Source: a virus (taxonomy: Duplodnaviria; Caudoviricetes). From it: 61,118 nucleotides of DNA. The DNA lies in the IMG/VR virus record IMGVR_UViG_3300045141_000235, positions 1 through 61,118 of that record; one strand, given 5' to 3'. The first letter of the stretch is position 1, and each line of letters begins with the position of its first letter. The notes beneath the pieces are model-generated. The model saw nothing but the letters and a program-made list of their open reading frames with translations, was not told the DNA's origin and ran no database searches. Shown here piece after piece: positions 19,501-49,275 of the stretch. Both the position numbers and the translations under genes were made by a program.

Positions 19501-22500
19501 CGGCGAGAATGTGTTGTTTCAGGCTCAGGCACCGTATGAGGCGGGCGGCGGCGTGCCCGCCCTGACCCCTGCCGGCGAGTATAATCTTCCCGATGCACAG
19601 ACCGGTCCCGATCAGGTACAGGCGCCGCGTGGAAAAGCTCCTGGCGGGCAGCCGCCGGCCTCCGGCCAAGGGGACCTATTCACCGCGGCCGCGTTACCGG
19701 GTTTCCAAAAAGGCCCGCAGCCCCCAATCGTCGTAAGTGCCGTGCAACGCGGCCTCATGCGTATCGGCTACGACAGGCTCGATACGCCAGAGAAGGCAGC
19801 GCAGGCTTTCTCGGCCCTTCGCAAATCCCCGCGTGAGCATTTCCAGATCATCGTGACGGATGCTCAGGATCGACCGCTCGCGGCGTGGCATCTATTCTCA
19901 GGTACGCTGACGACATCGAGCGTTTATCCGCGCGAGGTGATGACCGCGATTTACATGACCCCTGGGGCGGGCAAAGTCTGGTTTTCGCACAATCATCCGT
20001 CGGGAGTGGCCGATCCAAGCCATGCCGATCAAATGCTGACTGAGGGTTTGGTAAGAGCGGGCCTGGGGCGCGACATCGGGGTGGAACTCGCAGGCCACAT
20101 CATCATCGCCGCCCGGCGGGCGCGGATGTTCAGTGCTGCAGATCCATTGGGCTATGTGTTCGACATCCCGGCTGCCTCGCGCAAGGTCGCCATTCCGATT
20201 CTTGAGAGGACGATCACGCGCCAGTCATTTGCTGACCGAGCACCCCTGAATAATCCAGATCGCGTTCGCAATTACCTGAGCGACGAGAAAAATCGCCCGC
20301 GGGAGCCGGGGCTTTTGCTTATGGACGCCCAGAACCGCCCGCTTGGGTTCTGGCCGATCTCGGTTGCCGACATGGGCGCACTCAGAACCAGCGATGTCAA
20401 CACCGGCGCCGGGCGGGTGATCCAGATGGTTGGCCGGTTGAACCCCGGAGCCGCCATTGCCTACGTGCCTGGGGTAGATGACTTCACAACCCAGAGGGCG
20501 GTTGCCAACATAGGCTCGCTCTTAAACGGTATTGATGTGCGCATGATCGACGGCTTCGTGGTCGAGCCCGGGCCGCAGGGTAAGGTTACAAGCTACGCCG
20601 AGCGCGGATTTGATCTGGCGGCTCCTACGTTCTATTCGCGCGGGGACACCGGCGCAACTGGTATTTCGGTATCCGACCTCGAGACGGCAATCGGGGAAGC
20701 GCTCGACCAGCTCGACACCGGCTACACGCTGCACGCGAATATCGAAGAAGCGCGGGCGGCCACCGGCGCCCAACACCCGGCCGACGCCAAGGCGTTCTTT
20801 GACAACGGGCGGATGCACTTCGTAGCCGCCAATCTGGATAGCGCCCAGGACGCCGAAGAACAACTCTGGCATGAGACGCTCCACGCTGGCATAGCCCGCC
20901 TGTACGGGCAGCGCGGACGGGCCTATGAGCAGGCCTTGACCACCATCGCCGGGCGCAACCCGAACCTCCGAACTGAGGCTCGGCAATGGCGTGAGGACTT
21001 CGGAGAGGACGCAAGGCGCACCGCAGTCGATTCGGGCATGACAGATGACCAGGCGCGCCGCCACGTGACGCTCACGAGCTATGAGGAGGCCCTGGCGAGG
21101 CTATCCGGGCGCAATGCCAAAATCAGCGGTCTGTCGCAGTTCTTGGCGGCTGTGCAGCGGTTCCTGCGGGCGGTTGGATTGACGCGCCTGGCGGATGCCA
21201 TGGAGGCAGCCACGGACGCAGAAGCGCTCAATCTCGTGCTGCGGGCGCGCGAGGCGGTGACAACAGGGCGGGGAGTGGCGGGGCCGGTATCGTCAGCCAC
21301 GCTTGAGACGAAGTTCTCGCGGACTACACCTCAAGCAACAGCCCAATTCAAAGCCTTGCTCGACACTTTGGGGCGCGACGACGTAAACGCTATCCTGGGC
21401 GACTGGAACGATTCGGAGCTGTCCGAGGATGGCAGCCGTATCGTTCAATATTCTGGCCGTGACCGCGAGTTCTCAACCGGAAAAGAGGGCGGTAAACACA
21501 CCATACCGAAAGCCGATTTTCTGTCGTGGCTCGCAAGCGACGCGCCGTTTGCCGAGATCAAAGACCCAGAATGGCGCGCACAGATTGAGGCTGCGCGGCG
21601 GGCGGCTTTTGGAGAACAGCGCGGCGCTTTGCGTATCGACCAAACGCAGACCCCGGAATTCAAGAATTTTTTCGGGGATTGGGAAGCGTTGCGCGCTCAG
21701 GGAAAACTCGACTCCATGATGCCGGTGTCCATACAGATTCCTGCCGGCTGGGAGCGCTTGCCCAAAACAGAACTTCGCCAGCGTGTAGCTGATGCGCTTG
21801 ACGCCGCCGTGCGTGATCGTGCGGAAATAGTGCATCCAGAGTTGGGCGCCATCAAGATAGGTCGGCGCGGAGTAAACAAGACCATCAGCGCGAGCCCTGA
21901 CCCGGCGAAGCTGCTGATTGCGAATGATCTGGCAAACGTCATTCCAGCAACCGTAGTAATGGCGACACAGCCTGGAAACGCTCCCAACATTTTGCAGAGG
22001 ACTACCCTTGCCGCCCGCGTGCAAATAGGGCGCACGGAACTCGTTGCGCTCGCGGCGGTTAATCAGCAGGAAGATGGGCGCTGGTACTACAATACGGTGG
22101 TCGTAGAAGACCCCCAAATACAAACCCCGACCGAAGCCGGGGCAGGGACTCCTGGGCATGTGCGGGGCGCAACGGCCGAAACCGAAAGTAACCCGCTCCT
22201 AACAGAAGTCGCGAACTTTATACGCCGCTCGCTTCGCCGCGTCAATCCTGCGCTCGTTTCCAAGGTGGTCGATGCAAGCGACAAGCCGCTTGCGGTATAT
22301 AACGGCACAACTGCCGTTTTTACGGCGTTCTCGCTAAACAAACTTGGTGAAAAGACAGGCGCGGCAGACGCGAGGGAAGGTTTCTTTTTCTCCGAGAATC
22401 CTGATGCTGCCGAGCAGTTCACGTGGGCGGATGGCGAGAAGTCAGGGTCGATCATGCCCGTCTATCTCGCCATTAAAAATCCGTTCGTTTCAGATCATGT

Positions 22501-25500
22501 GTTGAACGGTGCTACGGGTACAATTGCCGGGAAGATCATCGCGCAGGCCAAGGCGTCGGGCCATGATGGCGTGATTTTCACACAATCCGACATGCTTGGT
22601 CATAAGGGTAAAACTTACGTTGCTTTCCGCCCAGAACAAATTAAATCCGCGATCGGCAATACCGGAACCTTCAGCCCAACGAACCCCGACATACGCTACA
22701 GCCGCGGCCCTGTCGCCGCCGTCCAGCCGGCACTGAATAGCGCCCGCCAGGTCATAGACGACATCATCACGTCCGACCGGGTATTGAATCGCGTTATCTC
22801 GAAGGTCAATACGCCGTTTCACTTGGCCGAGACGCACCCGGAATTCAAGCCCGTCTATACCGAAGCGCAGAACTACACCGCCGACACCTCGCGCTACGCG
22901 AACGAGGCGGCCGACCAGGCGCCCAATCTTCTGGTCAGGATTGAATCCTTTGGCGACTTCAATCGCACGCTTCCAACCGACGCTGATCTGTCAGCAATCG
23001 AGCGGGCGCTGCATATCGGGACCCTGTGGGGGGGCCCATCCCCATTGCAGGGGAGGCTCTGGCGCGACGCCGAACTCAAAGCCGGGCGGATCAAGGAGGG
23101 CGGGCTGCCAGTCTTCACGCCCTTGAACGACGCCCAGATCAAGCTCTACCGGCAGCACTTGGCCGCGGTTTCCACCGGGCTCGAAGAACACTCGAAGTCG
23201 CTCATCTGGAAGATCGCCGATACAGCCGGGCTCGAAGTGGACCACGAGATGCCGATCGCGGATGTAGCGCAAAACGCCCGCGATGCGGCCGATGGCGCAA
23301 TTGAGACGTTAAATGCGCGACTTCAATACCTCTCGGACCAGGACCGGATTGACGGGCATGTGCAGGGCATGGACGCGGCCCGCGCCTCTGAATACCGCAG
23401 GAAGCAGGAAGACGAAGCGGCTCGCGTGGCGGACAAGATCGACGGGCTGGAGAAGCTCAAAGCCTCGGTTTCAGACATTGAGCAAAAGACCGCCGATCTG
23501 ATTGCCCACGGCTACACCCCGCTCATGCGCTTTGGCGCCTATGCGGTCAACGTGGTGAGCTTTGATGAAAATGGGGCCGAGACCGAGGAATTCTTCGGGC
23601 GCTACGACACCCAGCAGGAGGCGAATCGCGCCAAGCGCGATCTCGCTCGTGAATTCAAAGATCAGAATGTGCGGATCACCAGCAGCGTTTTGCCACAGGA
23701 AGCACACAAGCTATTCCAGGGCTTGAATCTGGATGCGCTGTCGATCTTCGCAGAGTACATGACGGACGATGAAGGCCGCCCGATTTCTGAGAACCCTGCG
23801 ATCCAGGCATACCTGCGCCTGGCGACAACCGAGAGGAGCGCCCTGAACCGCATGATTCACCGCAAGGGCACGCCGGGCTTCTCGAAAGACGTATCCCGCG
23901 GCCTGGCGCAGTTCACAGTTTCGATGGCGCAGGCGACGTCGCGCAATTATCACTCAGCCTCGATGCTCTCGCTTGCCAACGACATCCGGGCGGGCGACCT
24001 AAAAGACTATGCCGCGCGCTATGTGCGGTATTTGCAGGACCCGCAGGAGGAAGCGCAGGCGTTGCGGGGGTTCCTGGCCCAGTACTACATCCTGGGGTCG
24101 ATTGCGTTCGGTGCGGTCAATCTCACGCAACCGATTTTGATGACGGTGCCCGCTCTCTCGGCGCACACGAGCTACGCCAATGCCATGCGCGAGATCGTGC
24201 GCGCGGCCGGCAACATGGTAACGGGACGCAAGACCCTGAGCGCCGAAGAGCGCCATGCCTACAACCGGGCGGCAAAAGCGGGCAAAGTCAGCCCGCAGGA
24301 AATTCACCAGTTGCGGGCGGACACCAAGGCCACCATGTTCGGCGCATCTCCAATGTGGCAGAAGATCGACAGCCTGCTCGCGTCTCGCGGAATGAAGCTG
24401 CCGGGCAGACTGCTTATGCGCAAGCTCTCGTTTGTCTGGGGCAGTATTTATGCGCTTACCGAACAAGTGAATAGAGGAACAACTTTCCTCGCGGCGTACC
24501 GAATCGCAAAGCAAAACAAAGAGCGTGATCCGTACGGATTTGCAGTGAACATGGTCGATGCGACGCAAGGCGTGTACGCGAGATCAAATCGACCTGAAAT
24601 TTCGCGCGGCCCGATTGGCGCTCCTCTTCTCGTATTCAAACAATTTTCAATCGCATATATTGAACTCGCCAAGCGGCTCTATGACACGGACAAAAAAGCT
24701 TTCGCAGTTCTGATGCTGACTCTCATAGCGCTTGCGGGCGCTGACGGCCTACCATTCGCGGAGGACGTCGAGGATTTAATCGATGTTTTGGGACAATGGA
24801 TGGGTTATGCCACGAACTCGAAAAAGGAATTGCGTAAGCTCGCCACCAATCTGCTCGGCAAAGAAATGGGGGATGTGCTTCTCCACGGCATGAGTGCGAT
24901 TCCAGGAATGCCGATCGACGTCTCGCAGAGAATGGGGATGCACAATTTGATTCCAGGGACAGGATTGCTGAAAACGAGCGAAGCGGATAAAACGCGAGAC
25001 ATTCAGGACATCTTAGGCCCGGCCGCGAGCCTTGCCAAGAACATCGGGCAGGCGGTCGAGGGTATTGCAACCGGGCACCCTGGACAGGTGAAGCTGCTGG
25101 CTCCACTTGCGATCCAGAACATCCTGAAGGGTATTGAGATGGCGCAGACGGACGTTTATACGGATCAGCGCGGACGGAAAATTCTCTCTGTTGATGCCGT
25201 TGACAGTATTTTCAAAATGATAGGTTTCCAGCCAGCAGCAGTCGCCGCCGAAACCCGCATCGTCGGCCAGAACCAGCAGGACATCGCGCTGCAGAAGATC
25301 ATTGAATCCAGCATTGCAGATAATTGGGCGCACGGGCTGACTGATCCAGACCCGGATCTGGTGCGCCGCTCGCGCGAGCAACTGGCTGAGTGGAATTCTA
25401 AAAACCCAGAGCTAATTATTCGCTTGAACCAGGGACAAATCTTGCGCCGCGTGCGCGAGATCAGATCGACGCGAGAGCAGAGATTTATTCGTAGCGCACC

Positions 25501-25543
25501 ACCGGAAATTCGCGGTAGTGTGCGTCAGGACTTCCCGCAGTAG
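13562..25543 (+). CDS. Giant polyvalent virion protein (3,993 aa) with C-terminal PLxRFG domain
   Basis: DUF5710-like (YLAVPF...AK..GAKWD...KLWF), DdrB-like ParB (LQNRDRS; AGNGR), RadC/JAB (HNHPSG...PS.AD), zincin HETLH, ART-PolyVal-like (GFFFS...MPVYL.IKNP...GHDGV..QIKSA.GN.GTF) and GYTPLMRFG. Confidence 0.85.
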   Translation: MDGPENIPQWPDIKSSSVFNALDDAEKERTRAAYFRQIIEPTLEPGQVASARSQWDELTGPVGPTSITDYGASALSGAASGLGMIFQGGGELLARGVNAVAGTSLRAINPLQGAIDYLQESQTPGAKRAQAQSQISGSLFDPSTYDFGTNPNASGLALQGLNAIGQFAPNLAIAIATSGASIPAQLGIGATVGGLQALGGGAEEERTKFMAMGDDELAASSQLYRDLVANGTKPEVAKRAVAEAAALGGGIGNAIPSAAEGAFENFLIGAITRGRFRFPSVFGAGAGVAGKVATGLVGGAMLGGSEEAVEQIGQNLGVNAAIGGNRQLTADTLQQFVMGAIAEGAAGGGGAYVARNIAQERQAPAIPGASSSFGGVPPGPSPADQFSRQAEATATAIQSQPTVEAAAGAAQDTIGGVPLDVLIARAEKSLGVIGQTTARIGLINAASKSEGVGPIGTALRDTLGPPQPETGITTPLPVRLFGQPIEEVGDAELDQAIQNHPMSAFRVAAEQEKARRAANVDRGTSTGDSNAPGIIGPTAQNIPQAQPEQGGAGQRDVAVGIPAAAGVTGGTAGPTTAIQPAAPQDAPIPQAVAPVTTLLGYPIAEFTTPQLQNILPLLKPEARPGLMAEIARRAPPPAPPVKPATAVAPPPTTEGTRIYLAVPFTSRNFAKTHGAKWDSEEKLWFDEKRKDGQINISLRHFIPQRDAVVRDKNYARAAALNATTETGREHHAIPHPDPMLAGGYTVVEKGAPARTAAPPPPPAPKPLTGTVLQNRDRSSAASRAWIKSASANLSYLGTGPSTNFQSGAFVGFEDQPTIPANRFGREGRILAAGGRIIPFRYAVVDIRDTLRSHAADGTPNEGYETGVPGKVRIVAGNGRGEAIAEAFRTGRAARYVEDFRADAEGHGIAPSEIDAVEQPALIRVIAASEITPDIGDLSNISQAADLSPAEKATNDARRLDMSGLEFSEDGQITRNAVKQFVAALPDTERSGLIDHAGEPTRQAYDRLTNAVFLQAYGDAELVSLQSQATDPEARTVMTALTRAAPVMMKLEGAESLDIRSVVIEAAKAAVNAKRQGASLVRFAQQVDLTMHPESSLVLKFFADNIRSAARIADGLTRAATTAVEEAAKPATDMFGAVPRASRADILRRLSETDIQENLGERAGVKTPGQDVERGGTGQPGPADNRPAEEGGPAETGLRQPTPEYEAAGVAPPGAAEAISRHGLPENTAWDRGRGPISDKWAASASGVQSNYHATADAAAKELREFLDAAGHARAADEAVNRAQNSAADKLRRGENPTFPEWKAAFPQLRQGHTYLRQPDIAPFLIEHFGFRRNDIRSNLGEAAGTLTSDTGAQYPIVYFNKLERVLSQAPPAFDLAGQTPEELRAAARARRAEAATKSAAERAAAEAAASALEREAIRQAAAKDGPLELTPTSAVDKATQKALDEKDALDQLSGQGGLFQTRARYEVVPRLSVLHNLNAENLKFADRLGGLPVPSLGIVREGMGISGMGDITLIGRRELADPAAQPVHDADTYSPTFPRPEYDKARYATAERLFNELKPFGDKFDDGNSQHVTVDNSVTNPDPQKIIATWVSGPAPQAMFLSGKGVDVEPVMMDKSVTFNWVRFGNVERMRALLKEITGDPTPANDVAHRATVDLIEEMRAAIRRDPDYQRYRKLAGAAQAMAGKAHIFGASGQWINAADAADKMPGAILYRLQDSIDGLGKQEVDRSATRERLAEALKGQEAEFKTWVDDKVMAMFGRPFLRLRGRKEPYNLANIVEAMSGRVRATEETMTFGPGKARAAAASRFQDIEQMRRAASQIGDESEIKAARDHAAKLLEDWRNSVIDYYGDPVEGRNAFGRTWDALDASMKALARWARGAKTEANMKRALATEGFRTGEMSDYHFEDGVAAGQAWMKAPVPYFEAKPQRAVALNEFAGAVIPEKTDAATRTILDKHGIPYRTYAEGQQQRATDEFRAELAGRGENVLFQAQAPYEAGGGVPALTPAGEYNLPDAQTGPDQVQAPRGKAPGGQPPASGQGDLFTAAALPGFQKGPQPPIVVSAVQRGLMRIGYDRLDTPEKAAQAFSALRKSPREHFQIIVTDAQDRPLAAWHLFSGTLTTSSVYPREVMTAIYMTPGAGKVWFSHNHPSGVADPSHADQMLTEGLVRAGLGRDIGVELAGHIIIAARRARMFSAADPLGYVFDIPAASRKVAIPILERTITRQSFADRAPLNNPDRVRNYLSDEKNRPREPGLLLMDAQNRPLGFWPISVADMGALRTSDVNTGAGRVIQMVGRLNPGAAIAYVPGVDDFTTQRAVANIGSLLNGIDVRMIDGFVVEPGPQGKVTSYAERGFDLAAPTFYSRGDTGATGISVSDLETAIGEALDQLDTGYTLHANIEEARAATGAQHPADAKAFFDNGRMHFVAANLDSAQDAEEQLWHETLHAGIARLYGQRGRAYEQALTTIAGRNPNLRTEARQWREDFGEDARRTAVDSGMTDDQARRHVTLTSYEEALARLSGRNAKISGLSQFLAAVQRFLRAVGLTRLADAMEAATDAEALNLVLRAREAVTTGRGVAGPVSSATLETKFSRTTPQATAQFKALLDTLGRDDVNAILGDWNDSELSEDGSRIVQYSGRDREFSTGKEGGKHTIPKADFLSWLASDAPFAEIKDPEWRAQIEAARRAAFGEQRGALRIDQTQTPEFKNFFGDWEALRAQGKLDSMMPVSIQIPAGWERLPKTELRQRVADALDAAVRDRAEIVHPELGAIKIGRRGVNKTISASPDPAKLLIANDLANVIPATVVMATQPGNAPNILQRTTLAARVQIGRTELVALAAVNQQEDGRWYYNTVVVEDPQIQTPTEAGAGTPGHVRGATAETESNPLLTEVANFIRRSLRRVNPALVSKVVDASDKPLAVYNGTTAVFTAFSLNKLGEKTGAADAREGFFFSENPDAAEQFTWADGEKSGSIMPVYLAIKNPFVSDHVLNGATGTIAGKIIAQAKASGHDGVIFTQSDMLGHKGKTYVAFRPEQIKSAIGNTGTFSPTNPDIRYSRGPVAAVQPALNSARQVIDDIITSDRVLNRVISKVNTPFHLAETHPEFKPVYTEAQNYTADTSRYANEAADQAPNLLVRIESFGDFNRTLPTDADLSAIERALHIGTLWGGPSPLQGRLWRDAELKAGRIKEGGLPVFTPLNDAQIKLYRQHLAAVSTGLEEHSKSLIWKIADTAGLEVDHEMPIADVAQNARDAADGAIETLNARLQYLSDQDRIDGHVQGMDAARASEYRRKQEDEAARVADKIDGLEKLKASVSDIEQKTADLIAHGYTPLMRFGAYAVNVVSFDENGAETEEFFGRYDTQQEANRAKRDLAREFKDQNVRITSSVLPQEAHKLFQGLNLDALSIFAEYMTDDEGRPISENPAIQAYLRLATTERSALNRMIHRKGTPGFSKDVSRGLAQFTVSMAQATSRNYHSASMLSLANDIRAGDLKDYAARYVRYLQDPQEEAQALRGFLAQYYILGSIAFGAVNLTQPILMTVPALSAHTSYANAMREIVRAAGNMVTGRKTLSAEERHAYNRAAKAGKVSPQEIHQLRADTKATMFGASPMWQKIDSLLASRGMKLPGRLLMRKLSFVWGSIYALTEQVNRGTTFLAAYRIAKQNKERDPYGFAVNMVDATQGVYARSNRPEISRGPIGAPLLVFKQFSIAYIELAKRLYDTDKKAFAVLMLTLIALAGADGLPFAEDVEDLIDVLGQWMGYATNSKKELRKLATNLLGKEMGDVLLHGMSAIPGMPIDVSQRMGMHNLIPGTGLLKTSEADKTRDIQDILGPAASLAKNIGQAVEGIATGHPGQVKLLAPLAIQNILKGIEMAQTDVYTDQRGRKILSVDAVDSIFKMIGFQPAAVAAETRIVGQNQQDIALQKIIESSIADNWAHGLTDPDPDLVRRSREQLAEWNSKNPELIIRLNQGQILRRVREIRSTREQRFIRSAPPEIRGSVRQDFPQ

Positions 25544-41898: not shown

Positions 41899-42411
41899 AT
41901 GCCGACCCTTCAATACTACGAACGCTCGACAGGGGTACGCGTACACGCCACCGCCAACCTCGTAGGCAATGACATCACCTTGGGCGAGAACTGCCGCATT
42001 GATGGCAACGTCACGATTACCGGTAAAGTCGCAATCGGGCGCAATTGTCATATCGGAACGGGGGTGAGTATTTTGGGCGGGCATGGCGTGACGATTGGAG
42101 ACCATTGCGGCATAAGTCCTGGGGTTAAGATTTTCACCGGCACGATTGATCCTGATTGCGGGCTGCTTCTGCTACATGCCGAAAGTGAACTCGAATCCGA
42201 GGGAAGGGTGGGACCAGTGCAGATCGGAAATTACGTCACCATCGGCGCGAACTCGGTGGTGCTGCCAGGCGTGACAATAGAGGACCAGGTAATTGTCGGC
42301 GCTCTCTCACTCGTGAGGGGTGGTCACATTGGGGCCGGGTATATTTACGGCGGCAATCCGCTGCGGACCTTGGGCTTGAGGACGCCGTTGAAGTATCAGC
42401 AGACCGCGTAA
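41899..42411 (+). CDS. Hexapeptide-repeat acyltransferase (VioB-like sugar N-acyltransferase)
   Basis: Left-handed beta-helix repeats LGENCRID, IGRNCHIG, IGDHCGIS, IGANSVVLPGVTI, YGGNP. Confidence 0.8.
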   Translation: MPTLQYYERSTGVRVHATANLVGNDITLGENCRIDGNVTITGKVAIGRNCHIGTGVSILGGHGVTIGDHCGISPGVKIFTGTIDPDCGLLLLHAESELESEGRVGPVQIGNYVTIGANSVVLPGVTIEDQVIVGALSLVRGGHIGAGYIYGGNPLRTLGLRTPLKYQQTA

Positions 42412-42414
42412 GCA

Positions 42415-42642
42415 ATGCCGGAGACGCTGAAACAGGTGATGGGCGTCATTATGGCAAGCCCTAACGGGCGAGATGACTGGTTGCCGGTCAGGTACGAGGA
42501 CGTGCCAGATTTTGTGAAACACCCGGACTGCATGGCACGCCTGGTCGAGGGGGATATGGTGATGGGCCCCAAGCTGGGACCCAAAGGCTCGGCATGGTTC
42601 CGGCTTGAAACCATCAGGGGCGAGCAGGACCCCGTACATTGA
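42415..42642 (+). CDS. Hypothetical protein between the sugar-modifying genes
   Basis: 75-aa coupled ORF. Confidence 0.5.
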   Translation: MPETLKQVMGVIMASPNGRDDWLPVRYEDVPDFVKHPDCMARLVEGDMVMGPKLGPKGSAWFRLETIRGEQDPVH

Positions 42643-43670
42643 TTCGTTTATTGGTGCCCTTGATTCCGCCCATCGAGGCGGCAATCCCCTACTACCGGAA
42701 GTCCGAAGAAGCGCGCCATTACAGTAATTTCGGCCCCTGCGTACTCGAACTTGAGCGCCGCCTATCCGAGCACTTCGCCGGCGCCTACATCACCACGACG
42801 TCGAGCTGCACGAGCGGGCTGGAAATCGTCTACACGCTGGCCCATATCTCGGGCTACGAGAAGATTGAGCTGCCGGCCCTGACATACCCAGCCACCTGGA
42901 TGGCAGCCACACGCTCCGGGCTTGAGATATTGCCGATCGACGTCGATCCTGACACCTGGATTGCGCCGGGAGTAGCCGGGTTCGGGTTGCCGAGCTACGC
43001 GCCGATTGTGGACGCGGCCGGCGCGTTCGGTGAGCAGCGGGTGCCGATCATCACGGAGGGGATGACGGCGGTATTCAGCGCGCACTGTACCAAGCCATTG
43101 GGCGTTGGTGAGGCGGGCTGGATTGTTACGTGGGACCAGGGGGCGTCAGAAGAATACCGCGCGATGTCGCAGTTTGGCATCAACGGGCAGACCGGGTTCG
43201 GGCTTAATGCCAAGATGAGCGAGCTGCACGCTGCGATGGCGCTCGCGGCCCTGGACGCCTGGCCTGGGACGCGGGCGCGCTACCTGCAGCTCTTCGACTG
43301 GTACGACAAATACCTGCCGGCGGGCGTGACCCCGCAGAAGCGCCCGCGAGGGGTTTACCCGATTCTGGCGGTAAAGCTGCCACAGATGCCTGGCGGCGCG
43401 CTGGCGGCGGTCGCGGCAATGCGGGAGCGCGGCGTCGAGTGCCGGCAGTGGTATGTGCCAACATGCGACCGGCTGCCGCTATTCATCCCCAAACAACCCA
43501 AGGAAGGGGCGCTGGGAGGGCACAGGCGGGCGCAGGCGAAGCTGCCGCACCTGCCGGTCACTGAGGTCCTGGCGGAGAGCCTAATCGGCCTCCCCTGGCA
43601 TTTGTGGCTTTCTGAGTCTGACGTGAAGCAGGTATGCGAGGCGCTTGGCGCCGTGATCGAAGTTCGTTAA
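42639..43670 (+). CDS. DegT/DnrJ/EryC1/StrS PLP aminotransferase (VioA-like)
   Basis: YSNFGP...LE, SCTSGL, P.LTYPAT, DAAGAFG, FSAHCTKPLGVGE.G (PLP lysine), GLNAKMSELHAA. Confidence 0.9.
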   Translation: MIRLLVPLIPPIEAAIPYYRKSEEARHYSNFGPCVLELERRLSEHFAGAYITTTSSCTSGLEIVYTLAHISGYEKIELPALTYPATWMAATRSGLEILPIDVDPDTWIAPGVAGFGLPSYAPIVDAAGAFGEQRVPIITEGMTAVFSAHCTKPLGVGEAGWIVTWDQGASEEYRAMSQFGINGQTGFGLNAKMSELHAAMALAALDAWPGTRARYLQLFDWYDKYLPAGVTPQKRPRGVYPILAVKLPQMPGGALAAVAAMRERGVECRQWYVPTCDRLPLFIPKQPKEGALGGHRRAQAKLPHLPVTEVLAESLIGLPWHLWLSESDVKQVCEALGAVIEVR

Positions 43671-43712: not shown

Positions 43713-44288
43713 ATGAAGAAACGCCGCAAGCCCGCCAAAGGCGGATCAGCACGCGCTGTGAAGGCACGCGAGAATGCTTTCGCGCACGCATATCTGGCTA
43801 ATGGGAGAAATGGGACACAGGCTGCGATATCAGCCGGGTACAGCAAAAAGGGCGCCGATGTGACCGCAGTTCGGCTACTAAGGCGTGCTAGGGTTATGGC
43901 GATAGTTGACGCCGCCGCCGACAAAGCGGCCGAAGAATCGGGCCTGACGGTGGAGCGCACGCTGCGCGAAGTGGCAAGGATCGCGTATTCGAGCCCGAAG
44001 CGGTTTTACCGGAACCAGGTGCTACTGCCGATCGACCAGATGGACGACGAGGACGCCGCCTGCGTTGCCTCCTTCGAGGTAGATGACGACAAGGAAGGCA
44101 ATCTCACGAAGAAAATCAAGATTTGGGACAAGCCGGCGGCGTTGGGGCTGGCAGCTCGAATCCTGGGCATGTTCGAGAAGGACAATCGCCAGCAGCCGGC
44201 TGCGGTCGCGCTGCACCCGATTGGCAAGGTCACTTACCGCTTTAAGCCCTACCGCGGGCGGGAGCGCGCAACGTCGCAGAGCCGCTGA
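43713..44288 (+). CDS. terS: Terminase small subunit
   Basis: F...YL..NGTQAAISAGYS..A...RLL; L.E.ARIA.S; KIKIWDK..AL. Confidence 0.9.
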   Translation: MKKRRKPAKGGSARAVKARENAFAHAYLANGRNGTQAAISAGYSKKGADVTAVRLLRRARVMAIVDAAADKAAEESGLTVERTLREVARIAYSSPKRFYRNQVLLPIDQMDDEDAACVASFEVDDDKEGNLTKKIKIWDKPAALGLAARILGMFEKDNRQQPAAVALHPIGKVTYRFKPYRGRERATSQSR

Positions 44289-45874
44289 TGCCGGCGCCGA
44301 AGCAGGACCTTTACGCTGCCAGAGCGCGCTACGTGGCCGATCTGCTCGCGCATCTGAACCGCTGCACCATGAAGCAAGCGCTGGCCGAGTATGACCGACT
44401 GCCGCACGAATCGGCCTGTGATGATTGGGTGATCGCGGAACTCGGGCGCTCGGATTTGTTCTTCCTGATGCACCAGTTGTTGTGGCGCCCTGACATCGGG
44501 CATCCGTGGTTATATGCGCGGTGCCGGGAGCTTGAAGCTGACCCGTATGAGCATCTGGACCTATGGGCAAGATCGCATTATAAAAGCTCGTTGCTGACCT
44601 TCGCCTGCGGCATCCAGGACGTGCTGCGCGACCCCGAGCTTTGCACCGGCATCTTCTCGCACACCCGGCCCAAGGCAAAAGACTTCCTGCGCCAGATCAA
44701 GCAGGAGTTGGAGAACAACGAGGATCTGCAGGACCTCTACGCTGACGTGCTCTGGAAGGAGCCGAGGAAGACGGCGCCGATATGGAGTGAGGACCACGGC
44801 TTAGTCGTCAAGCGCAAGCAGAATCCGGCCGAGGCGAGCTTTGAGGCGTGGGGCTTGATCGACTCCATGCCCACGGGCAAGCACTTCGGCAAACTGGTTT
44901 ACGACGACATCGTAACCGAGCAGTCGGTAACGTCGCCGGAAATAATGAAGAAAACCACCGATCAGTTGGCGTTGTCGTTCAATCTTGGGCGCGAAGGCGC
45001 TGTTCGGCAGTTCATCGGCACGCGCTACCACATGAACGACAGCTACCGCACTCTGATCGACCGCAAGACGGTTAAGGTGCGGCTGCATCCATGCACAGCC
45101 AACGGCAAGCTGGAGAAGGGTGTGGACGGCGTGCTGATGGATTTCGAGACGCTCGCCAAGATGCGGCGCGACATGGGGCAATATATTTTCGAAGCGCAGA
45201 TGATGCTAAATCCGCGCGGCGACGAAACCCAGGGCTTCAAACGCGAATGGCTTCGCCACTACAAAAACGCGCAGTCGGGCCGCGGGATGAACGTCTACAT
45301 CCTGGTGGACCCGGCGAACTCGAAGCGAAAGAAGTCGGACTACACCGCGATCATGGTGGTTGGCCTGGGACCGGATTCGAACTACTACATCCTGGACATG
45401 GTTCGGGACCGGTTGAATCTCACGCAGCGCACTCAACGCCTGATGGAGCTGCATCGCAAGTGGCAGCCGCAGGATGACGGGGTTCGGTACGAGGAATACG
45501 GAATGCAGGCCGACATCCAGCACATCGAATCAGTGCAGGAGTCGGCCAACTACCGCTTCAAGATCACCCCCGTTGGGGGCGGTATGCACAAAGCCGATCG
45601 GATCAATCGCTTAATCCCGCTCTACGAGCAGGGGAAGGTCTGGATGATGGTCTCGCTCCACGTAACCAACGTGGAGGGCGAGGTGCGCGATCTCGTTCAC
45701 GACTTCATCGAGGACGAGTACATGGCCTGGCCGGTGCCGGTTCACGAAGATTTGTTGGACGCATTTGCCCAAATTACAGATTCGGAGCTGCCCTTGAGAT
45801 GGCCGGCGAAGAAGAAAGACTTCGGGAACATCATGCCCGCTTACGTTAGTCTCGATCCTGGCGTCGGGATGTAG
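44288..45874 (+). CDS. terL: Terminase large subunit
   Basis: ATPase motifs LWARSHYKS, TGKHF..YDD, IGTRYH; nuclease VDPA...SDYTA...HEDLLDA. Confidence 0.9.
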   Translation: MPAPKQDLYAARARYVADLLAHLNRCTMKQALAEYDRLPHESACDDWVIAELGRSDLFFLMHQLLWRPDIGHPWLYARCRELEADPYEHLDLWARSHYKSSLLTFACGIQDVLRDPELCTGIFSHTRPKAKDFLRQIKQELENNEDLQDLYADVLWKEPRKTAPIWSEDHGLVVKRKQNPAEASFEAWGLIDSMPTGKHFGKLVYDDIVTEQSVTSPEIMKKTTDQLALSFNLGREGAVRQFIGTRYHMNDSYRTLIDRKTVKVRLHPCTANGKLEKGVDGVLMDFETLAKMRRDMGQYIFEAQMMLNPRGDETQGFKREWLRHYKNAQSGRGMNVYILVDPANSKRKKSDYTAIMVVGLGPDSNYYILDMVRDRLNLTQRTQRLMELHRKWQPQDDGVRYEEYGMQADIQHIESVQESANYRFKITPVGGGMHKADRINRLIPLYEQGKVWMMVSLHVTNVEGEVRDLVHDFIEDEYMAWPVPVHEDLLDAFAQITDSELPLRWPAKKKDFGNIMPAYVSLDPGVGM

Positions 45875-45897
45875 TCACAACGCACTTAGGAGAAATC

Positions 45898-45931
45898 ATG
45901 GCAGACGCCGTAACCACCCAGACAATCTTCA
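45898..45931 (+). pseudogene. Orphaned 5' end (MADAVTTQTIF) of the gene at 47080; predicted TnpB guide region on the - strand
   Basis: Has RBS taggag; 27/34 nt identical to 47080..47113; abuts the TnpB right end. Confidence 0.8.
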
Positions 45932-47113
45932 TTGACATCCTCCCCGCCTTAAAGGACGGGGATTCCTACAGCTAGACGCGAATGTCCTCGCGCGAAAATG
46001 AGCTTGGCTGAATTGACATCACGATCATGAGAGACGCCGCATTCAGTGCAAGTCCAATTTCTTATTCGCAAGTCTGCGATACCTTTAGGGCCACCGAGCG
46101 AACCGCACTCGGAGCAGACTTGGGTCGTGAAGCGTTCGTTGACTTCCTCGAACCATACGCGGTGCGCGATCGCTTTATAGGCGAGCATGATTCTGAATGC
46201 ACTCCACCCCGCATCCAAGACCGATTTCGCCATCTTGGTTTTTGCGAGGTCGGAGGCATTCACGTTGCCAACGAAGATTACCGCGTTCTCGCGAACGAGG
46301 CGGGTGGAAAGTTTATGCAAATGGTCTTTCCTGCGGTACTTGATTTTGGCGTGTATCGCTTTGATACGCCGCTTCTTGTGGGCGCGCTGCGCGATAGCCA
46401 GCTTGGGTTGAAGATCGCGGTAGAACCGCTGGGCTTCAATCTTCTCCCCATTACTGAACGTGGCGAAGTCCTTGATGCCGAGGTCTATGCCGATGGAACC
46501 GGTACCTTCGGATGCAGCGGGTTGATCGACTTCGCAATTTAAGTTCACGAACCAGTGGCCTTGCGCATTTTGAGCAAAGTTGCCAGCTTTGATCTTGCCT
46601 TCGATGGGTCGCGACAGCCAGAAGCGGAAGGTGTGACCGTAGTAATTGACAGAATCGTCAGTGATCTTGACACCGGGCGCCTTGAACGGAATCCAACCAA
46701 GTGATTTCTTTCCACGCCAGCGCAAACGCCGCTTCCTGAATTGCTGGCGGCGGGTAGCGTATTCCTCGCAGACAGCCTGAATGCTCTGGGCGTTGATGCC
46801 GAGTTCTTTGGAGCAACCAGCGGTGAGTTTAATCAGATCGAAACCGGAAGGCCAACGCTTTGCCCACCGCAGCGCATGATGCTGTGTTTCGTTACAGAAG
46901 TTCCAGACCATGTTGACGGCGCGCGCCATCTCTCCAAGCGCATCGGCACAGTTGGAGTCTTTAACCCGGAAGGAAAAGGTGCGAATCATGTTTAACCATT
47001 CCGCGAAATCGCGAGCAAGAACGGTGAAGTGTCAGAATCGTAGCACAGCTTCGCTGTGCGCGCTGAAAAGGAAACAATAATGGCAGACTCGGTAACTTCT
47101 CAGACCATTTTCA
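45932..47113 (-). mobile_element. IS200/IS605-family TnpB-only element (left boundary uncertain)
   Basis: Right end on - strand ...ggaatccccgtcctttaaggcggggaggatgTCAA (hairpin + TCAA); hairpin gcacagcgaagctgtgc upstream of tnpB; no tnpA. Confidence 0.75.
45949..46989 (-). CDS. tnpB: RNA-guided endonuclease TnpB
   Basis: RuvC-I GIDLG, zinc finger CSECG...CTECG, RuvC-III HDRDVNSA; the canonical RuvC-II Glu position reads IFVGNV, with a candidate alternative Glu in VNERFTTQ. Confidence 0.93.
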   Translation of the reverse strand: MIRTFSFRVKDSNCADALGEMARAVNMVWNFCNETQHHALRWAKRWPSGFDLIKLTAGCSKELGINAQSIQAVCEEYATRRQQFRKRRLRWRGKKSLGWIPFKAPGVKITDDSVNYYGHTFRFWLSRPIEGKIKAGNFAQNAQGHWFVNLNCEVDQPAASEGTGSIGIDLGIKDFATFSNGEKIEAQRFYRDLQPKLAIAQRAHKKRRIKAIHAKIKYRRKDHLHKLSTRLVRENAVIFVGNVNASDLAKTKMAKSVLDAGWSAFRIMLAYKAIAHRVWFEEVNERFTTQVCSECGSLGGPKGIADLRIRNWTCTECGVSHDRDVNSAKLIFARGHSRLAVGIPVL

Positions 47114-47508
47114 ACACCCCTCAGCGGACCAAGGTGCATTGGACGAACATCTCGGACGGCACCGGCGAGGCGGCGGTTACCAAGCTGAATATCACAACAC
47201 TCCTCGCCAACGACAACCTGCAGCCGAATTCCTTGGACATCGAGGAAGTTGATTGGTCAATCCAGGGCTTTGCGTCAGTGCGTATCCTGTGGGACCACAC
47301 GATCCCGGACGTAGCACTCGTGCTGGCCGCTGGCAGTGGGTATCGGGACTTTCGGAACAATTCCGATCCCCTGGACGATGATGGCATTCGGGCGCTGAAC
47401 GACCCTCGAAGTGCGGGCGGCACCGGTAGCATCCTTGTGACAACCAATGGGGCGCTGGCTGGGGCGACATACGACATCTCGGTGACATTCAGGAAGCGGC
47501 CCGGCTGA
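47080..47508 (+). CDS. Conserved phage virion-associated protein
   Basis: MADSVTSQTI...TNISDGTGE.AVTK motif; RBS aaggaa. Confidence 0.65.
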   Translation: MADSVTSQTIFNTPQRTKVHWTNISDGTGEAAVTKLNITTLLANDNLQPNSLDIEEVDWSIQGFASVRILWDHTIPDVALVLAAGSGYRDFRNNSDPLDDDGIRALNDPRSAGGTGSILVTTNGALAGATYDISVTFRKRPG

Positions 47509-48704
47509 TGGACGTTATTTCGCCTTCCAGGCGGCGCTTGATGTTCGGACAAAGTGGTTATGCGCCCTTGCGCCTGACGTTCAATTTGCGCCTGAGTGAT
47601 CTGGGGGGAACCTCTGGGGTTGATCTTGCGGCACAAGGTTTAGGGCTGGTCACACCAACATTCACACGTAATTCGGTGGCCTGGTTTAAGACCGCCGGTG
47701 GCGTCTGGGCCAAAGTTGCTTCCAATGTACCGCGCTCTCACTACCTAAGCAGCCCAAGCGAGAACACTTCAGCCGCCGGCTCGATCTACGCAGGATACTG
47801 GCAGGAGGGTGCAGGCATAAATTTAGTGACGCCAGCCGCAGCAATTCGAGACATGACCAACGCCGCTTGGGTGAAGACAGGGTTGACTGCGGTAAAGAAC
47901 GCACAAGGCATTGATGGGCTGGCTTTGAGCGCATCTACACTGACAGCCTCGGCGCCGGCAGCAACGGTATTGCAAATCCTGACCGCTGCGGCCTCGTCGC
48001 GCATCTATTCCGTATTCCTGCGCCGCAAAACCGGTTCCGGCGCGATTCTGATTCAACAGGGCGCCACAACTCTTGATGTAACGGCACAACTCAATACGCT
48101 CACCTACACGCGGGTTTTCCTACTGGCGAGCGTTCTCAATTCGGCATTCGGGATACGGATTGCAACCACTGGCGACGCCGTAGAGGCTGATTTCAATCAG
48201 TTCGAACCTCCAAACGCCACAAAATTGATTGGCCCTAGTAGCCCGATAGAAACGCAAGCTCCGCGCGAGGCCGACGCTTTATCATTCACGATCGCTGGCA
48301 ATGCTGATTTCGCGCAAGGCTCGGTATATGCCGAGATCGCTTCGATTGGGTGGAACTCAGGATTAGGGAGCATCGTTTCATTAGGAGACGGCGGCATCCA
48401 GACAAATATAAGTCCAAACAGTCTACAGATTGCGGACAGAGTCAATTTTAATAGCGTAGCGTTTACTCCGTCATCGATTACTGTGAGAAAGGTGGCCGCC
48501 AACTGGGGAGGCGCCACCGCGCAAGCATTCGCCAATGGTGTTGCCGGAGTAGCTGGGACTTTTTCCGGTGCCCTTGGGACAGGTAACAGTATCTACATTG
48601 GCACCGATCCTAATCCTTCCAACCACTGGTATGGCACCATCAAGAACGTGCAGATAACGCTTGTGAAACCAACGGAAGCGCAGATGTTAGCGCGGGTATC
48701 CTGA
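47508..48704 (+). CDS. Head spike/fibre-like protein with lectin (LamG-like) beta domains
   Basis: TFTRNS.A...N.PR...EG...NL, R.AD.L, G.IKNV motifs. Confidence 0.6.
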   Translation: MDVISPSRRRLMFGQSGYAPLRLTFNLRLSDLGGTSGVDLAAQGLGLVTPTFTRNSVAWFKTAGGVWAKVASNVPRSHYLSSPSENTSAAGSIYAGYWQEGAGINLVTPAAAIRDMTNAAWVKTGLTAVKNAQGIDGLALSASTLTASAPAATVLQILTAAASSRIYSVFLRRKTGSGAILIQQGATTLDVTAQLNTLTYTRVFLLASVLNSAFGIRIATTGDAVEADFNQFEPPNATKLIGPSSPIETQAPREADALSFTIAGNADFAQGSVYAEIASIGWNSGLGSIVSLGDGGIQTNISPNSLQIADRVNFNSVAFTPSSITVRKVAANWGGATAQAFANGVAGVAGTFSGALGTGNSIYIGTDPNPSNHWYGTIKNVQITLVKPTEAQMLARVS

Positions 48705-48705
48705 T

Positions 48706-49275
48706 ATGGATGATCGCAGACAACCAATCCCCGGCATCAGAATGTGGCTGCGTGTCGTTGTGGTTGCCTTGTTACTATCGACAGGCGCTTTGGCGCAGTT
48801 GCCTGCTCCTCAGCCAGTGCAGCAGCCTACGCCGGTTGTGCAATCGGGCCCGGTCGCGGTGGTTGAGTCGAATCAGGCTATGTGGATTGCGGTCGCGACC
48901 AGCGTTGTGGGTTTGCTCGGCACGGTTTTCACTGGATTGATGGCTTTTTTCATGGCCCGGCTCAACAAGCAAGCTGACGCCGCTACACAGATTGCCCAGA
49001 CAGGGTTGGACAAAGGAGAGAAAATTCTTGTGGCGTCCTCAAAAACGCTCGAAGTAGCAACAGCGAGCCACATTCTTTTGAATCATGACCGGCATGTGAT
49101 TCTCCAGAGCAACGCTGTGCTCGCGCGCCGGATTGCGGAGATTACGAAGTCGCAAGCAGATATTAAGACCGCTGACGATGCAGATAAGGCTGTAATTGAG
49201 CACGATTTGGGTCAAGCACGGGCCGACGCGAAGAAGGGCAGGATTCCGGTTGTTGGTGATAGGAGAGCGGGGTGA
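48706..49275 (+). CDS. Membrane protein (holin-like candidate)
   Basis: Signal-like N-terminus plus one TM helix, upstream of the lysin. Confidence 0.5.
   Translation: MDDRRQPIPGIRMWLRVVVVALLLSTGALAQLPAPQPVQQPTPVVQSGPVAVVESNQAMWIAVATSVVGLLGTVFTGLMAFFMARLNKQADAATQIAQTGLDKGEKILVASSKTLEVATASHILLNHDRHVILQSNAVLARRIAEITKSQADIKTADDADKAVIEHDLGQARADAKKGRIPVVGDRRAG

What the first reader, a model, noticed from the sequence alone, without database searches (positions are those of the whole stretch)
45898..47113. TnpB whose predicted guide is a phage gene start, with a recoded immune replacement: RNA-guided homing or phage-versus-phage weapon
Seen: after terL a gene begins (RBS + atg gca gac gcc gta acc acc cag aca atc ttc a) and is cut by the TnpB right end (TCAA on the - strand). 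Beyond tnpB the gene restarts with a new RBS and a recoded start (atg gca gac tcg gta act tct cag acc att ttc a; 7 differences in 34 nt, protein nearly unchanged). Known: the TnpB omega-RNA guide is the sequence flanking the right end, and IS200/605 insertion makes no target duplication. The predicted guide tgaagattgtctgggtggtt mismatches the working copy at positions 5, 8, 14, 16 and 17. No tnpA is present. Inference: the cassette cuts element-free sibling phages at a conserved gene while sparing itself, and spreads by recombination like an intron-less homing endonuclease.
Basis: partly seen in the sequence, partly recalled or inferred. Interest (0 to 1): 0.88.

Follow-up and report, generated by a model that had tools for sequence, protein, structure and literature searches.

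The report
Phage tnpB flanked by duplicated gene start
A soil phage carries an RNA-guided nuclease gene (tnpB) whose guide spells the normal start of the neighbouring virion gene, but the normal site lacks the short motif this nuclease family needs, so it looks more like a recombination scar than a phage-versus-phage weapon.

Summary
A 34-nt stub of gene X's start (45898-45931) abuts the right end of an intact, tnpA-less tnpB element. The working start of X (47080-47113) differs at 7 of 34 nt. The repeat is really 38 nt, 30/38 identical. The omega-RNA scaffold and its end ...GTCAA| are supported by covariation, so the predicted guide is the stub.

An element-free allele, stub running straight on into X, exists in another soil run. 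A third form of the terL-X slot also exists.

The weapon reading fails its own test. Twenty-one of 21 canonical left ends of relatives sit next to TTAT or TTAC. The wild-type site has GGTGT there.

A second phage contig, L086, has the same stub-element-gene anatomy. Its guide matches its own gene 39/39, again without a TAM. Only these 2 of roughly 100 distinct viral right ends show a stub.

The working copy ends in ATTAT where the element begins, as after an ordinary insertion.

Best reading (0.5): a stranded IS605-type element with a duplication scar made by recombination with an element-free sibling. RNA-guided homing is not excluded (0.15).

The parts
44288..45874 (+). terL (large terminase), left neighbour of the slot
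   Evidence: Pfam Terminase_6C 2e-05; PHROG 38, terminase large subunit, 3e-55.
45894..45931 (+). Right-end-side repeat copy S': 4 nt upstream plus the first 34 nt of a wild-type-like X allele (the stub). The stub ORF runs on to a stop at 45975 (25 aa).
   Evidence: The peptide is identical to the N-terminus of homologue P0002. A contig of run X4 reads through 45931 straight into the rest of X.
45912..45931 (-). Predicted 20-nt guide of the omega-RNA (the sequence directly 3' of the right end)
   Evidence: Right-end boundary. Unique in the window at up to 3 mismatches.
45932..46071 (-). Right end and omega-RNA scaffold; overlaps the 3' end of tnpB and ends ...GGAGGATGTCAA
   Evidence: Alignment of 30 right ends. 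Consensus structure of 21 pairs, 13 with compensatory changes. Sub-threshold Rfam HgcC hit at 45921-46038: 23.2 bits against a gathering score of 50, E 0.016.
45949..46989 (-). tnpB, 346 aa, intact
   Evidence: Pfam; PHROG 506, 2.4e-69. All 68 invariant columns of a 15-sequence alignment are kept, including GIDLG, CxxC...CxxC and HDRD. ISDra2 TnpB structures match at E 6.5e-29.
46990..47076 (-). Left-end-like region with two hairpins. It lacks the GCCGTAAAAC-type motif of relatives. Its outer end supplies the AAGGAAAC ribosome-binding stretch of X.
   Evidence: DNA fold -15.6 kcal/mol; 8 of 200 shuffles fold as well.
47077..47081 (-). ATTAT on the element's strand: a TAM-like pentamer at the end of repeat copy S, overlapping the AT of X's start codon. 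The stub has ATGAT at the same place.
   Evidence: Relatives' TAM. L140, the closest relative (60% identity), also has ATTAT.
47076..47113 (+). Left-end-side repeat copy S: the working start of X
47080..47508 (+). Gene X, 142 aa: a small single jelly-roll protein, probably a virion protein
   Evidence: 228 homologues. In L002 it lies between head and tail genes. Model pLDDT 90.1. Best structural matches are virus turret and cement jelly rolls: Z 8.7, rmsd 2.9, 104 aligned; and Z 6.7.

Best explanation
A tnpA-less IS200/IS605-family element (tnpB plus its omega-RNA, about 45932-47076, minus strand) sits in a variable slot between terL and a small jelly-roll virion gene, X. It is flanked by an imperfect 38-nt direct repeat made of X's first 34 nt plus 4 nt upstream.

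The left-end-side copy is the phage's own working gene start. It ends in ATTAT, the family's TAM type. That side therefore looks like an ordinary TnpA insertion 3 nt upstream of X's ATG, with the end of the element now supplying the ribosome-binding site.

The right-end-side copy is a dead stub of a wild-type-like X allele. I infer that it was added when the element-bearing genome recombined illegitimately with an element-free sibling of another lineage in a mixed infection, by template switch or end joining.

The omega-RNA guide therefore happens to spell the wild-type start of X. In wild-type genomes that sequence is preceded by GGTGT, not TTAT, so TnpB most likely cannot open and cut it. 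The only site that would join the TAM to this guide is the joint left by precise excision of this very element. If the nuclease acts at all, it acts as the ordinary selfish 'restorative' device of IS605 elements.

The mismatches of the resident copy are allelic divergence, not engineered immunity.

Shown: the anatomy, the right-end boundary, the scaffold, the intact nuclease motifs, the TAM of relatives, the element-free allele, and the second locus.
Inferred: the TAM of this particular enzyme, the exact left boundary, and the recombination origin.
For: 1. TAM. Twenty-one of 21 canonical left ends found by the motif scan are preceded by TTAT (20) or TTAC (1). Copies within one genome diverge exactly there, and the multiple alignment agrees.
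2. The wild-type site reads GGTGT before the guide match. This follows from the X4 contig, which runs from 45931 into ACACCCC... (table 7), and the resident copy is the same there.
3. Repeat copy S ends in ATTAT where non-repeated sequence begins. A hairpin lies 17 nt further in, the same spacing as in relatives. L140, the closest TnpB at 60% identity, also has ATTAT.
4. L086 carries a complete IS605: Y1_Tnp 8.6e-43 and a 360-aa tnpB. It has the same S-element-S' geometry, with a canonical TTTAT|left-end junction. The stub of a 75-aa gene abuts its right end, and the guide is identical to the resident gene over 39/39 nt while preceded by ATCAC. That genome would cut itself if a TAM were dispensable.
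5. In L086 the two copies differ by a replaced middle segment. In the window they differ at 21% of positions, with 5 of 7 differences at third codon positions (binomial p = 0.045). This is what two alleles that diverged while both were functional would show.
6. The slot is variable among close relatives: a plain 23-nt spacer in X4, a different 564-nt insert in X2, and the tnpB form in X1 and X3.
7. The anatomy is rare. Of 82 GTCAA-ended sites (40 viral, 42 bacterial, including some internal control sites), only the window (z = 11) and L086 (z = 28) stand out. Blastn across 111 loci found only L086. None of 74 further viral right ends scored above 14.
8. No TAM-flanked copy of the guide was found. 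The 31 exact 16-mer hits in IMG/VR do not extend beyond the 16-mer and none has TTAT.
Against: - The TAM of this enzyme is inferred from relatives that are only 41-60% identical; it was not measured.
- tnpB and the omega-RNA scaffold are fully intact while the left end has lost the motif conserved in relatives. That asymmetry is what selection on nuclease function without transposition would give, and it fits a domesticated use better than a decaying relic.
- The left boundary is ambiguous. The inner hairpin (46990-47031) resembles relatives' left ends better in sequence, and with that boundary the flank reads TCTGA, not a TAM.
- The resident gene's 5' end is more diverged from the X4-type allele (11/52) than its body (17/196; Fisher p = 0.023). 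This assumes the two X4 contigs are one genome. It could be a co-conversion tract, as in homing.
- No mechanism that I could write down produces the right-end|stub junction cleanly, and microhomology at the junction is at most 1 nt.
- I could not see the letters of the X4 and X2 contigs inside the aligned parts.
Confidence: 0.5

Rival explanations
1. The cassette is an RNA-guided, intron-less homing device or phage-versus-phage weapon. TnpB guided by the stub cuts the conserved start of X in element-free siblings, the mismatched resident start is immune, and the cassette spreads by recombinational repair.
For: - The guide is the wild-type-like start of X. The stub peptide is identical to P0002 and to the family consensus.
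- An element-free allele exists in nature.
- The resident copy has 5 of 20 mismatches, including guide positions 5 and 8.
- The nuclease and scaffold are intact while the left end is degenerate and tnpA is absent.
- The differences keep the protein nearly unchanged, with 5 of 7 at third codon positions.
- The resident 5' end is more diverged than the body (p = 0.023), as co-conversion would give.
- TnpB-driven spread without TnpA is shown for plasmids (PMC11870625, passages read). A 2026 review calls it theoretically possible for phages (PMC13565253, passages read).
Against: - The wild-type site lacks the TTAT/TTAC TAM that 21 of 21 relatives show.
- L086 tolerates a perfect 39-nt guide match in its own genome without a TAM.
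- The resident start ends in ATTAT at the element's edge, as a native insertion flank would, not an imported replacement.
- No second copy of the cassette was found. The exact stub, the degenerate pattern and the X and TerL protein scans found nothing close in IMG/VR. None of the 80 metagenome X loci encodes a TnpB.
- The stub anatomy occurs in only 2 of roughly 100 distinct viral right ends.
Confidence: 0.15
2. An ordinary TnpA insertion into a genome that already carried a short tandem duplication of X's start, left for example by earlier traffic through the variable terL-X slot. Nothing happened after insertion, and the guide simply records the flank, as in any IS605 element.
For: - ATTAT followed directly by the guide is exactly the canonical empty site for this element.
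- The slot has at least three forms in related phages.
- The family's rule that the guide equals the right-end flank needs no extra event.
Against: - No genome with the tandem S-S' arrangement but no element was seen. The X4 allele has a single copy.
- The two copies are 21% diverged, with a third-position bias that a young in-genome duplicate would not have.
- The same coincidence would have to be invoked again for L086, where the copies differ by a replaced middle segment.
Confidence: 0.12
3. An assembly chimera: the stub, the element or the restart were joined by the assembler from different genomes.
For: It is a metagenome-derived virus record. Many unrelated soil contigs share the 36-nt right end (table 7), and such a repeat can mislead assemblers.
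Against: - An independently built 23.9-kb Logan contig spans 44000-49000 with 0 differences, although it comes from the possible source run.
- A contig from a different run and study (X3) crosses the stub/right-end junction with 0 differences in 193 nt. X3 also holds 47121-47271 unchanged.
- L086 shows the same anatomy in an unrelated contig.
Confidence: 0.03

Closest known systems
IS200/IS605 TnpB-omega-RNA elements (ISDra2 type) and 'restorative homing'. Sources: the abstract starts of Karvelis 2021 (PMC8612924) and Meers 2023 (10.1101/2023.03.14.532601) in the listing; the mechanism as summarised in passages of PMC11870625.
   Same: - TnpB with OrfB_IS605 and TNB domains and intact RuvC and zinc motifs.
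- An omega-RNA scaffold overlapping the 3' end of tnpB.
- The guide is the right-end flank.
- A TTAT-type motif sits at one candidate left-end flank.
   Different: - No tnpA in the genome.
- The left end lacks the motif conserved in relatives.
- The right-end flank is a copy of sequence lying 5' of the TAM.
Intron-less homing by free-standing endonucleases of T-even phages (SegF, SegB, Mob), as described in passages of the review PMC13565253.
   Same: - A nuclease gene stands free between conserved phage genes.
- The nuclease-free allele of the neighbouring gene carries the sequence the nuclease could read.
- The resident allele differs by substitutions.
- Siblings without the gene exist.
   Different: - Recognition would be by RNA guide plus TAM, and the TAM is missing at the wild-type site.
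- No evidence of biased inheritance or of spread to other phages.
TnpB gene drive of IS605 in multicopy plasmids (bioRxiv preprint, PMC11870625; passages read).
   Same: TnpA-independent and RuvC-dependent advantage of the element-bearing replicon over the empty one. This is the mechanism the weapon model needs.
   Different: - There the empty site carries TAM plus guide by design; here it does not.
- The replicon is a plasmid, not a phage.
IMG/VR contig behind locus L086
   Same: The same geometry: gene start, TAM, left end, element, right end, then a stub of the same gene start.
   Different: - A complete IS with tnpA.
- The copies are 96% identical over the first 50 nt and differ by a replaced middle segment.
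- The repeat is about 165 and 305 nt long rather than 38.
- The guide matches the resident gene perfectly.
TldR, phage-encoded nuclease-dead TnpB-like RNA-guided repressors (PMC10705468; abstract start only).
   Same: A phage-borne TnpB relative with a fixed guide, used without transposition.
   Different: TldR has lost nuclease activity according to that abstract. Here the RuvC motifs are intact, and the guide lies in a coding start with no TAM.

Membership tests
IS200/IS605-family TnpB element | TnpB protein with OrfB_IS605 (RuvC) and zinc-ribbon/TNB domains | tested here: met
   PF01385 9.4e-14 and PF07282 6.8e-20; PHROG 506 2.4e-69; ISDra2 TnpB chains at E 6.5e-29.
IS200/IS605-family TnpB element | Catalytic and zinc-binding residues intact (active nuclease, not a dead derivative) | tested here: met
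   The window keeps every one of the 68 invariant columns of the 15-sequence alignment, including D169 (GIDLG), E282/E285, C292/C295/C314/C317 and D324 (HDRD). Assigning these to the RuvC triad is recalled knowledge.
IS200/IS605-family TnpB element | Conserved structured omega-RNA scaffold at the 3' end of tnpB, ending at the right end | tested here: met
   30 right ends aligned. 21 predicted pairs, 13 with compensatory changes. Copies diverge right after GTCAA.
IS200/IS605-family TnpB element | TAM directly 5' of the left end | tested here: inconclusive
   ATTAT lies at the end of repeat copy S (47077-47081, minus strand), with a hairpin 17 nt further in. The inner hairpin matches relatives better, and there the flank reads TCTGA.
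IS200/IS605-family TnpB element | Left-end subterminal hairpin with the conserved 5' motif (GCCGTAAAAC type in this clade) | tested here: not met
   The motif is present in 21 relatives and absent from 46990-47079. Hairpins are present.
IS200/IS605-family TnpB element | tnpA (Y1 transposase) in the element or genome | tested here: not met
   PF01797: 0 matches in the complete 61-kb record; the same search hit in 6 of 14 control genomes. The element is non-autonomous at best.
IS200/IS605-family TnpB element | Insertion without duplication of flanking sequence | tested here: not met
   A 38-nt imperfect direct repeat flanks the element. Such a repeat is absent from the bacterial right ends, and from the other viral right ends, apart from L086.
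Intron-less homing cassette (free-standing homing endonuclease type) | The nuclease-free allele carries a cleavable target in the neighbouring gene | tested here: not met
   An element-free allele exists and continues the stub, but the TAM position reads GGTGT against TTAT/TTAC in 21 of 21 relatives. Cleavage itself is not testable with these tools.
Intron-less homing cassette (free-standing homing endonuclease type) | The resident allele is protected by substitutions | tested here: met
   5 of 20 guide positions mismatch, and no match with up to 3 mismatches exists elsewhere in the genome.
Intron-less homing cassette (free-standing homing endonuclease type) | Biased inheritance, or spread of the cassette with co-converted flanks among related phages | not testable with these tools
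   No second carrier lineage was retrievable. The only hint is a more diverged 5' end of X (p = 0.023).

The most novel reading that the evidence does not exclude
A phage has domesticated a stranded TnpB as an RNA-guided, intron-less homing nuclease. The stub beside the right end serves as a hard-wired spacer against the wild-type start of an essential virion gene in sibling phages. The resident start is a mismatched, protein-preserving allele, and this enzyme has a relaxed or changed TAM (for example NGTGT). A weaker form of the same idea: stub-element-gene duplications such as this one and L086 are footprints of conflict between IS605 homing and TAM-escape alleles in mixed phage infections. 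In both loci the stub-side copy carries a single change at the third base of the TAM pentamer.
Probability: 0.15. Interest if true: 0.88.

Novelty: new variant of a known kind. Interest (0 to 1): 0.42.

Why it matters
TnpB genes are common in phage contigs: more than 520 relatives of this one were found in IMG/VR. What they do there is open. A 2026 review still calls TnpB homing between co-infecting phages theoretical (PMC13565253, passages).

This locus is a clean natural test case. It has an intact nuclease and guide RNA, no transposase, a guide that spells the wild-type allele of the neighbouring gene, a mismatched resident allele, and element-free siblings in the same habitat.

If the enzyme cuts the wild-type site, this would be the first RNA-guided analogue of Seg/Mob-type intron-less homing. 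If it does not, as the TAM evidence suggests, the locus and L086 document something else. They would be IS605-type elements flanked by allelic partial duplications, which the family's transposition chemistry does not predict. That points to illegitimate recombination between element-bearing and element-free phage genomes.

Tried and rejected
Searches for relatives that found nothing useful:
- Gene X as a single protein in IMG/VR: 13 pattern hits, 0 confirmed.
- The exact 34-nt stub in IMG/VR: 0 hits.
- A degenerate pattern for the N-terminal peptide with two free codons: 0 hits.
- TerL in IMG/VR: 1 distant hit at 22% identity.
- The tools state that records very near the window may be left out, so these blanks do not show that the phage has no kin.
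- The 80 metagenome loci with X homologues are at most 58% identical and hold no TnpB and no TerL of this type (tblastn). In L002, X lies between head and tail genes.
- Shorter X fragments: 1 irrelevant hit.
- GenBank phages share only the tnpB 3' end and scaffold: 14 records, none covering at least 80% of the query.

Weak or negative feature scans:
- Rfam gives only a sub-threshold HgcC match.
- The single-sequence fold of the scaffold is not better than shuffles (z = -0.83).
- The promoter scan found none, and the 2 terminator-like sites are at the chance level.
- Foldseek against the PDB gave no match at E <= 0.001 for X.
- The 31 IMG/VR hits to the guide 16-mer do not extend and have no TTAT. 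About that many are expected by chance by my own rough estimate.

Enrichment: stub-bearing elements in viral against bacterial loci, 2/40 against 0/42, is not significant (p = 0.23).

Origins considered and dropped:
- Recombination between two insertions, at p and at q: there is no TAM at p.
- TnpA cleavage at a pseudo right-end site: TCAC in L086 resembles TCAA, but the window's GGTGT does not.
- TnpB cut-distance effects: the repeat lengths of 38 and about 165-305 nt do not fit a cut 15-21 nt from the TAM (that distance is recalled knowledge).
- Homeology between the right end and X (GAGGATGT against GAGGGGTGT): the junction retains the full CAA, so a crossover there does not fit.

Parts without cover: runs X2 and X4 show no or little depth over 46004-46671. 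The tool warns that a hole proves nothing, and I draw nothing from it. Table 3 was cut at 40 of 168 differences, so I could not read the letters of the X4 or X2 alleles inside the stub or the start of X.

Supplementary files of papers were not opened and could hold surveys of phage tnpB loci.

Literature: three searches found no paper describing a phage tnpB whose guide is a stub of the neighbouring gene. This covers only the held library.
Full report
WHAT IS THERE

The window is a complete 61,118-bp virus record with direct terminal repeats. After terS (43713-44288) and terL (44288-45874) comes a 23-nt spacer with GGAG. An ATG at 45898 opens the first 11 codons of a gene.

At 45931/45932 the frame runs into the right end of an IS200/IS605-type element lying on the minus strand. 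tnpB is 45949-46989 and encodes 346 aa (OrfB_IS605 plus TNB domains; PHROG 506 at 2.4e-69).

Ninety nt beyond its start codon the gene restarts at 47080 and runs to 47508. I call this 142-aa gene X. The two starts differ at 7 of 34 nt. The repeat extends 4 nt further upstream: 38 nt, 30/38 identical, score 22 against at most 12 in 200 shuffles.

The genome has no Y1 transposase and no second tnpB.

THE ELEMENT

The right-end boundary is firm.
- Eleven related viral loci end in ...GGAGGATGTCAA and diverge right after it.
- Copies within single bacterial genomes do the same.
- In four soil runs many unrelated contigs match only 45932-45967 and run on unlike at 45931/45932 (table 7).

An alignment of 30 right ends gives a consensus structure of 21 pairs, 13 of them with compensatory changes, including the terminal hairpin and a long-range helix closed by GTC. 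Rfam has only a sub-threshold HgcC match.

The protein keeps all 68 invariant columns of a 15-member alignment, with the GIDLG, CxxC...CxxC and HDRD motifs. It matches ISDra2 TnpB structures at E 6.5e-29.

So an intact nuclease and guide-RNA scaffold are present, and the predicted guide is the reverse complement of the stub.

The left side is different. The 90 nt between tnpB and X hold two hairpins but not the GCCGTAAAAC-type motif that 21 relatives share.

GENE X AND ITS ALLELES

X has 228 homologues and no Pfam or PHROG family. In L002 it lies between head and tail genes.

Its model is a single jelly roll (pLDDT 90.1). The best structural matches are virus turret and cement proteins (Z 8.7, rmsd 2.9, 104 aligned; KHP40 cement Z 6.7). 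The tool's own note says Z under 8 is common, so this is only a lead.

I aligned 29 of the 120 listed homologues. The N-terminus MADAV occurs in 19 of the 28 full-length ones. The closest full-length homologue, P0002 (79% identity), has exactly the stub's 11 residues followed by NTPQR. Ser at position 4, as in the working copy, occurs in 4 distant homologues.

Laying the contigs of four soil runs on 44000-49000 gave four results.
- A 464-nt contig of X4 covers 45488-45931 (23 differences in 444) and then runs straight on with 18 letters. These read, in frame, NTPQRI. This is an element-free allele in which the stub is the real start of X.
- A 1,197-nt contig of X2 matches terL up to 45872 (7 differences in 397). 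It then has 564 other letters, and then matches X from exactly 47080 (26 differences in 236). This is a third form of the slot.
- A 193-nt contig of X3 crosses the stub/right-end junction without a difference.
- The possible source run X1 spans everything.

The terL-X junction is therefore a variable slot, and the tnpB form is real and present in at least two runs.

TESTING THE WEAPON MODEL

The model needs a TAM next to the guide match in wild-type genomes.

In relatives the left end is always preceded by TTTAT, TTAT or TTTAC. In a motif scan, 21 canonical left ends have TTAT (20) or TTAC (1). I placed the boundary by eye, using the pairs. These include L086 and L140, the relatives most like the window's protein.

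In the wild-type allele and in the resident copy, the five bases 5' of the guide match read GGTGT. The caveat is that the TAM is inferred from proteins only 41-60% identical.

A natural control points the same way. L086 is an IMG/VR contig with a complete IS605 (tnpA confirmed). It has the same anatomy. The right end abuts a stub (METKVLSVRIDAET...) of a 75-aa gene whose intact copy lies just beyond a canonical TTTAT|left-end junction. The guide is identical to the intact copy over 39/39 nt but is preceded by ATCAC. If a TAM were dispensable, that genome would target itself.

No TAM-flanked copy of the window's guide turned up. The 31 IMG/VR 16-mer hits do not extend.

The anatomy is rare. The window (z = 11) and L086 (z = 28) are the only outliers among 82 sites. 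Only L086 was found among 111 loci by blastn. None was found among 74 further viral right ends. Some of these sets share contigs.

WHERE THE STUB MAY COME FROM

In both loci the copy next to the left end (S) ends in the TAM: ATTAT in the window, TTTAT in L086. In the window a hairpin follows 17 nt further in, the spacing seen in relatives. So the left junction looks like a normal TnpA insertion, in the window 3 nt upstream of X's ATG. The working start is then the native flank, not an imported replacement, and the AAGGAAAC before it belongs to the element's end.

The anomaly is the right junction. The right end is followed by a second copy (S') of the segment that lies 5' of the TAM. Only after S' comes the sequence that should have been the flank.

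The copies look like alleles from different genomes. In L086 they share the first 75 nt or so and a 28-nt block at the TAM, but have different middles. In the window they differ at 21% of positions, with 5 of 7 differences at third codon positions (p = 0.045).

In both loci S' has one change at the third base of the TAM pentamer (ATGAT, TCTAT). With two cases this is only a hint.

I infer an illegitimate join (template switch or end joining) between an element-bearing genome and an element-free sibling in a mixed infection. I could not derive a clean mechanism. The alternatives I dropped are listed under Tried and rejected.

HOW IT MOST LIKELY WORKS

The element makes a TnpB-omega-RNA complex whose guide spells the wild-type start of X. 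This part is shown by sequence and homology.

The only DNA that would combine the TAM with this guide is the joint left by precise excision of this element (ATTAT plus guide). That would require a TnpA supplied in trans and a functional left end, which looks degenerate.

My best reading (0.5) is a stranded selfish element with a duplication scar and an idle or merely restorative nuclease.

Three facts count against that reading: the intact nuclease and scaffold beside a decayed left end, the more diverged 5' end of the resident gene (11/52 against 17/196, p = 0.023), and the existence of element-free siblings. They keep RNA-guided homing alive at about 0.15.

COMPARISON AND NOVELTY

It is a member of the IS200/IS605 TnpB family by protein and RNA. 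It fails three family features: tnpA, the left-end motif, and insertion without a flanking repeat.

It resembles intron-less homing cassettes in layout but fails the cleavable-target test.

Within the held library, three searches found no description of such a locus. TnpB gene drive is reported for plasmids (PMC11870625, passages). For phages it is described as only theoretical (PMC13565253, passages). Other phage tnpB reports I read are descriptive (10.64898/2026.02.14.705889 and PMC11054128, passages).

I rate it a new variant of a known kind, of moderate interest, with one cheap decisive experiment: a TAM and cleavage assay.

LIMITS

- I could not read the letters of the X4 and X2 alleles inside the aligned parts.
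- No close relative's DNA could be fetched.
- The enzyme's TAM is inferred, not measured.

Noticed in passing
window 45872-47080, seen through run X2 (tables 5 and 8): A close relative (terL 98% identical over 397 nt) has a different 564-nt insert between the terL stop and the ATG of X. Run X3 has a loose end at 45872 that may be the same insert. The terL-X junction is a variable slot with at least three forms. The content of the 564 nt could not be read.
   Followed up: partly
L086:2118-4417 (IMG/VR contig, 31.9 kb): A complete IS605 (tnpA plus tnpB) is flanked by a near-identical partial duplication of a 75-aa gene's start and upstream region. The guide matches the resident gene 39/39 without a TAM. 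The stub-side copy has TCTAT where the other has TTTAT.
   Followed up: partly
window 13562-25543 (+): A 3,993-aa ORF with polyvalent-protein domains: ART-PolyVal, RadC-like JAB, PBECR5 nuclease, LPD3 and a ddrB-ParB domain.
   Followed up: no
window 41899-43670 (+): A hexapeptide-repeat acyltransferase (170 aa) and a DegT/DnrJ/EryC1 aminotransferase (343 aa) lie just upstream of terS. These are sugar-modification genes in a phage.
   Followed up: no
L083, L141, L145, L146, L154, directly upstream of tnpB: A small ORF reads like a ribbon-helix-helix protein (my reading of the sequence; not tested) and overlaps the tnpB start. It fits the title and abstract start of a 2026 preprint on Arc repressors in IS605 elements (10.64898/2026.09.24.754181, listing only).
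   Followed up: no
window 45932-45967, in runs X1-X4 (table 7): Many unrelated soil contigs share only the 36-nt right-end hairpin and diverge on both sides. This IS family is abundant in these soils. Relatives of the TnpB are found in Burkholderiales and Moraxellaceae genomes, which may hint at the host range.
   Followed up: no
window 45949-46989 against the whole window: tnpB has 53.8% G+C against 58.0% for the phage, consistent with foreign origin.
   Followed up: no
window 47505-47508: X's stop overlaps the ATG of the next gene (ATGA). That gene encodes a 398-aa protein with a weak concanavalin-like/Laminin_G_3 match (E 0.00094, below the cut-off). The same X-then-overlapping-gene layout occurs in L002, where the next gene matches baseplate and virion protein families.
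   Followed up: no
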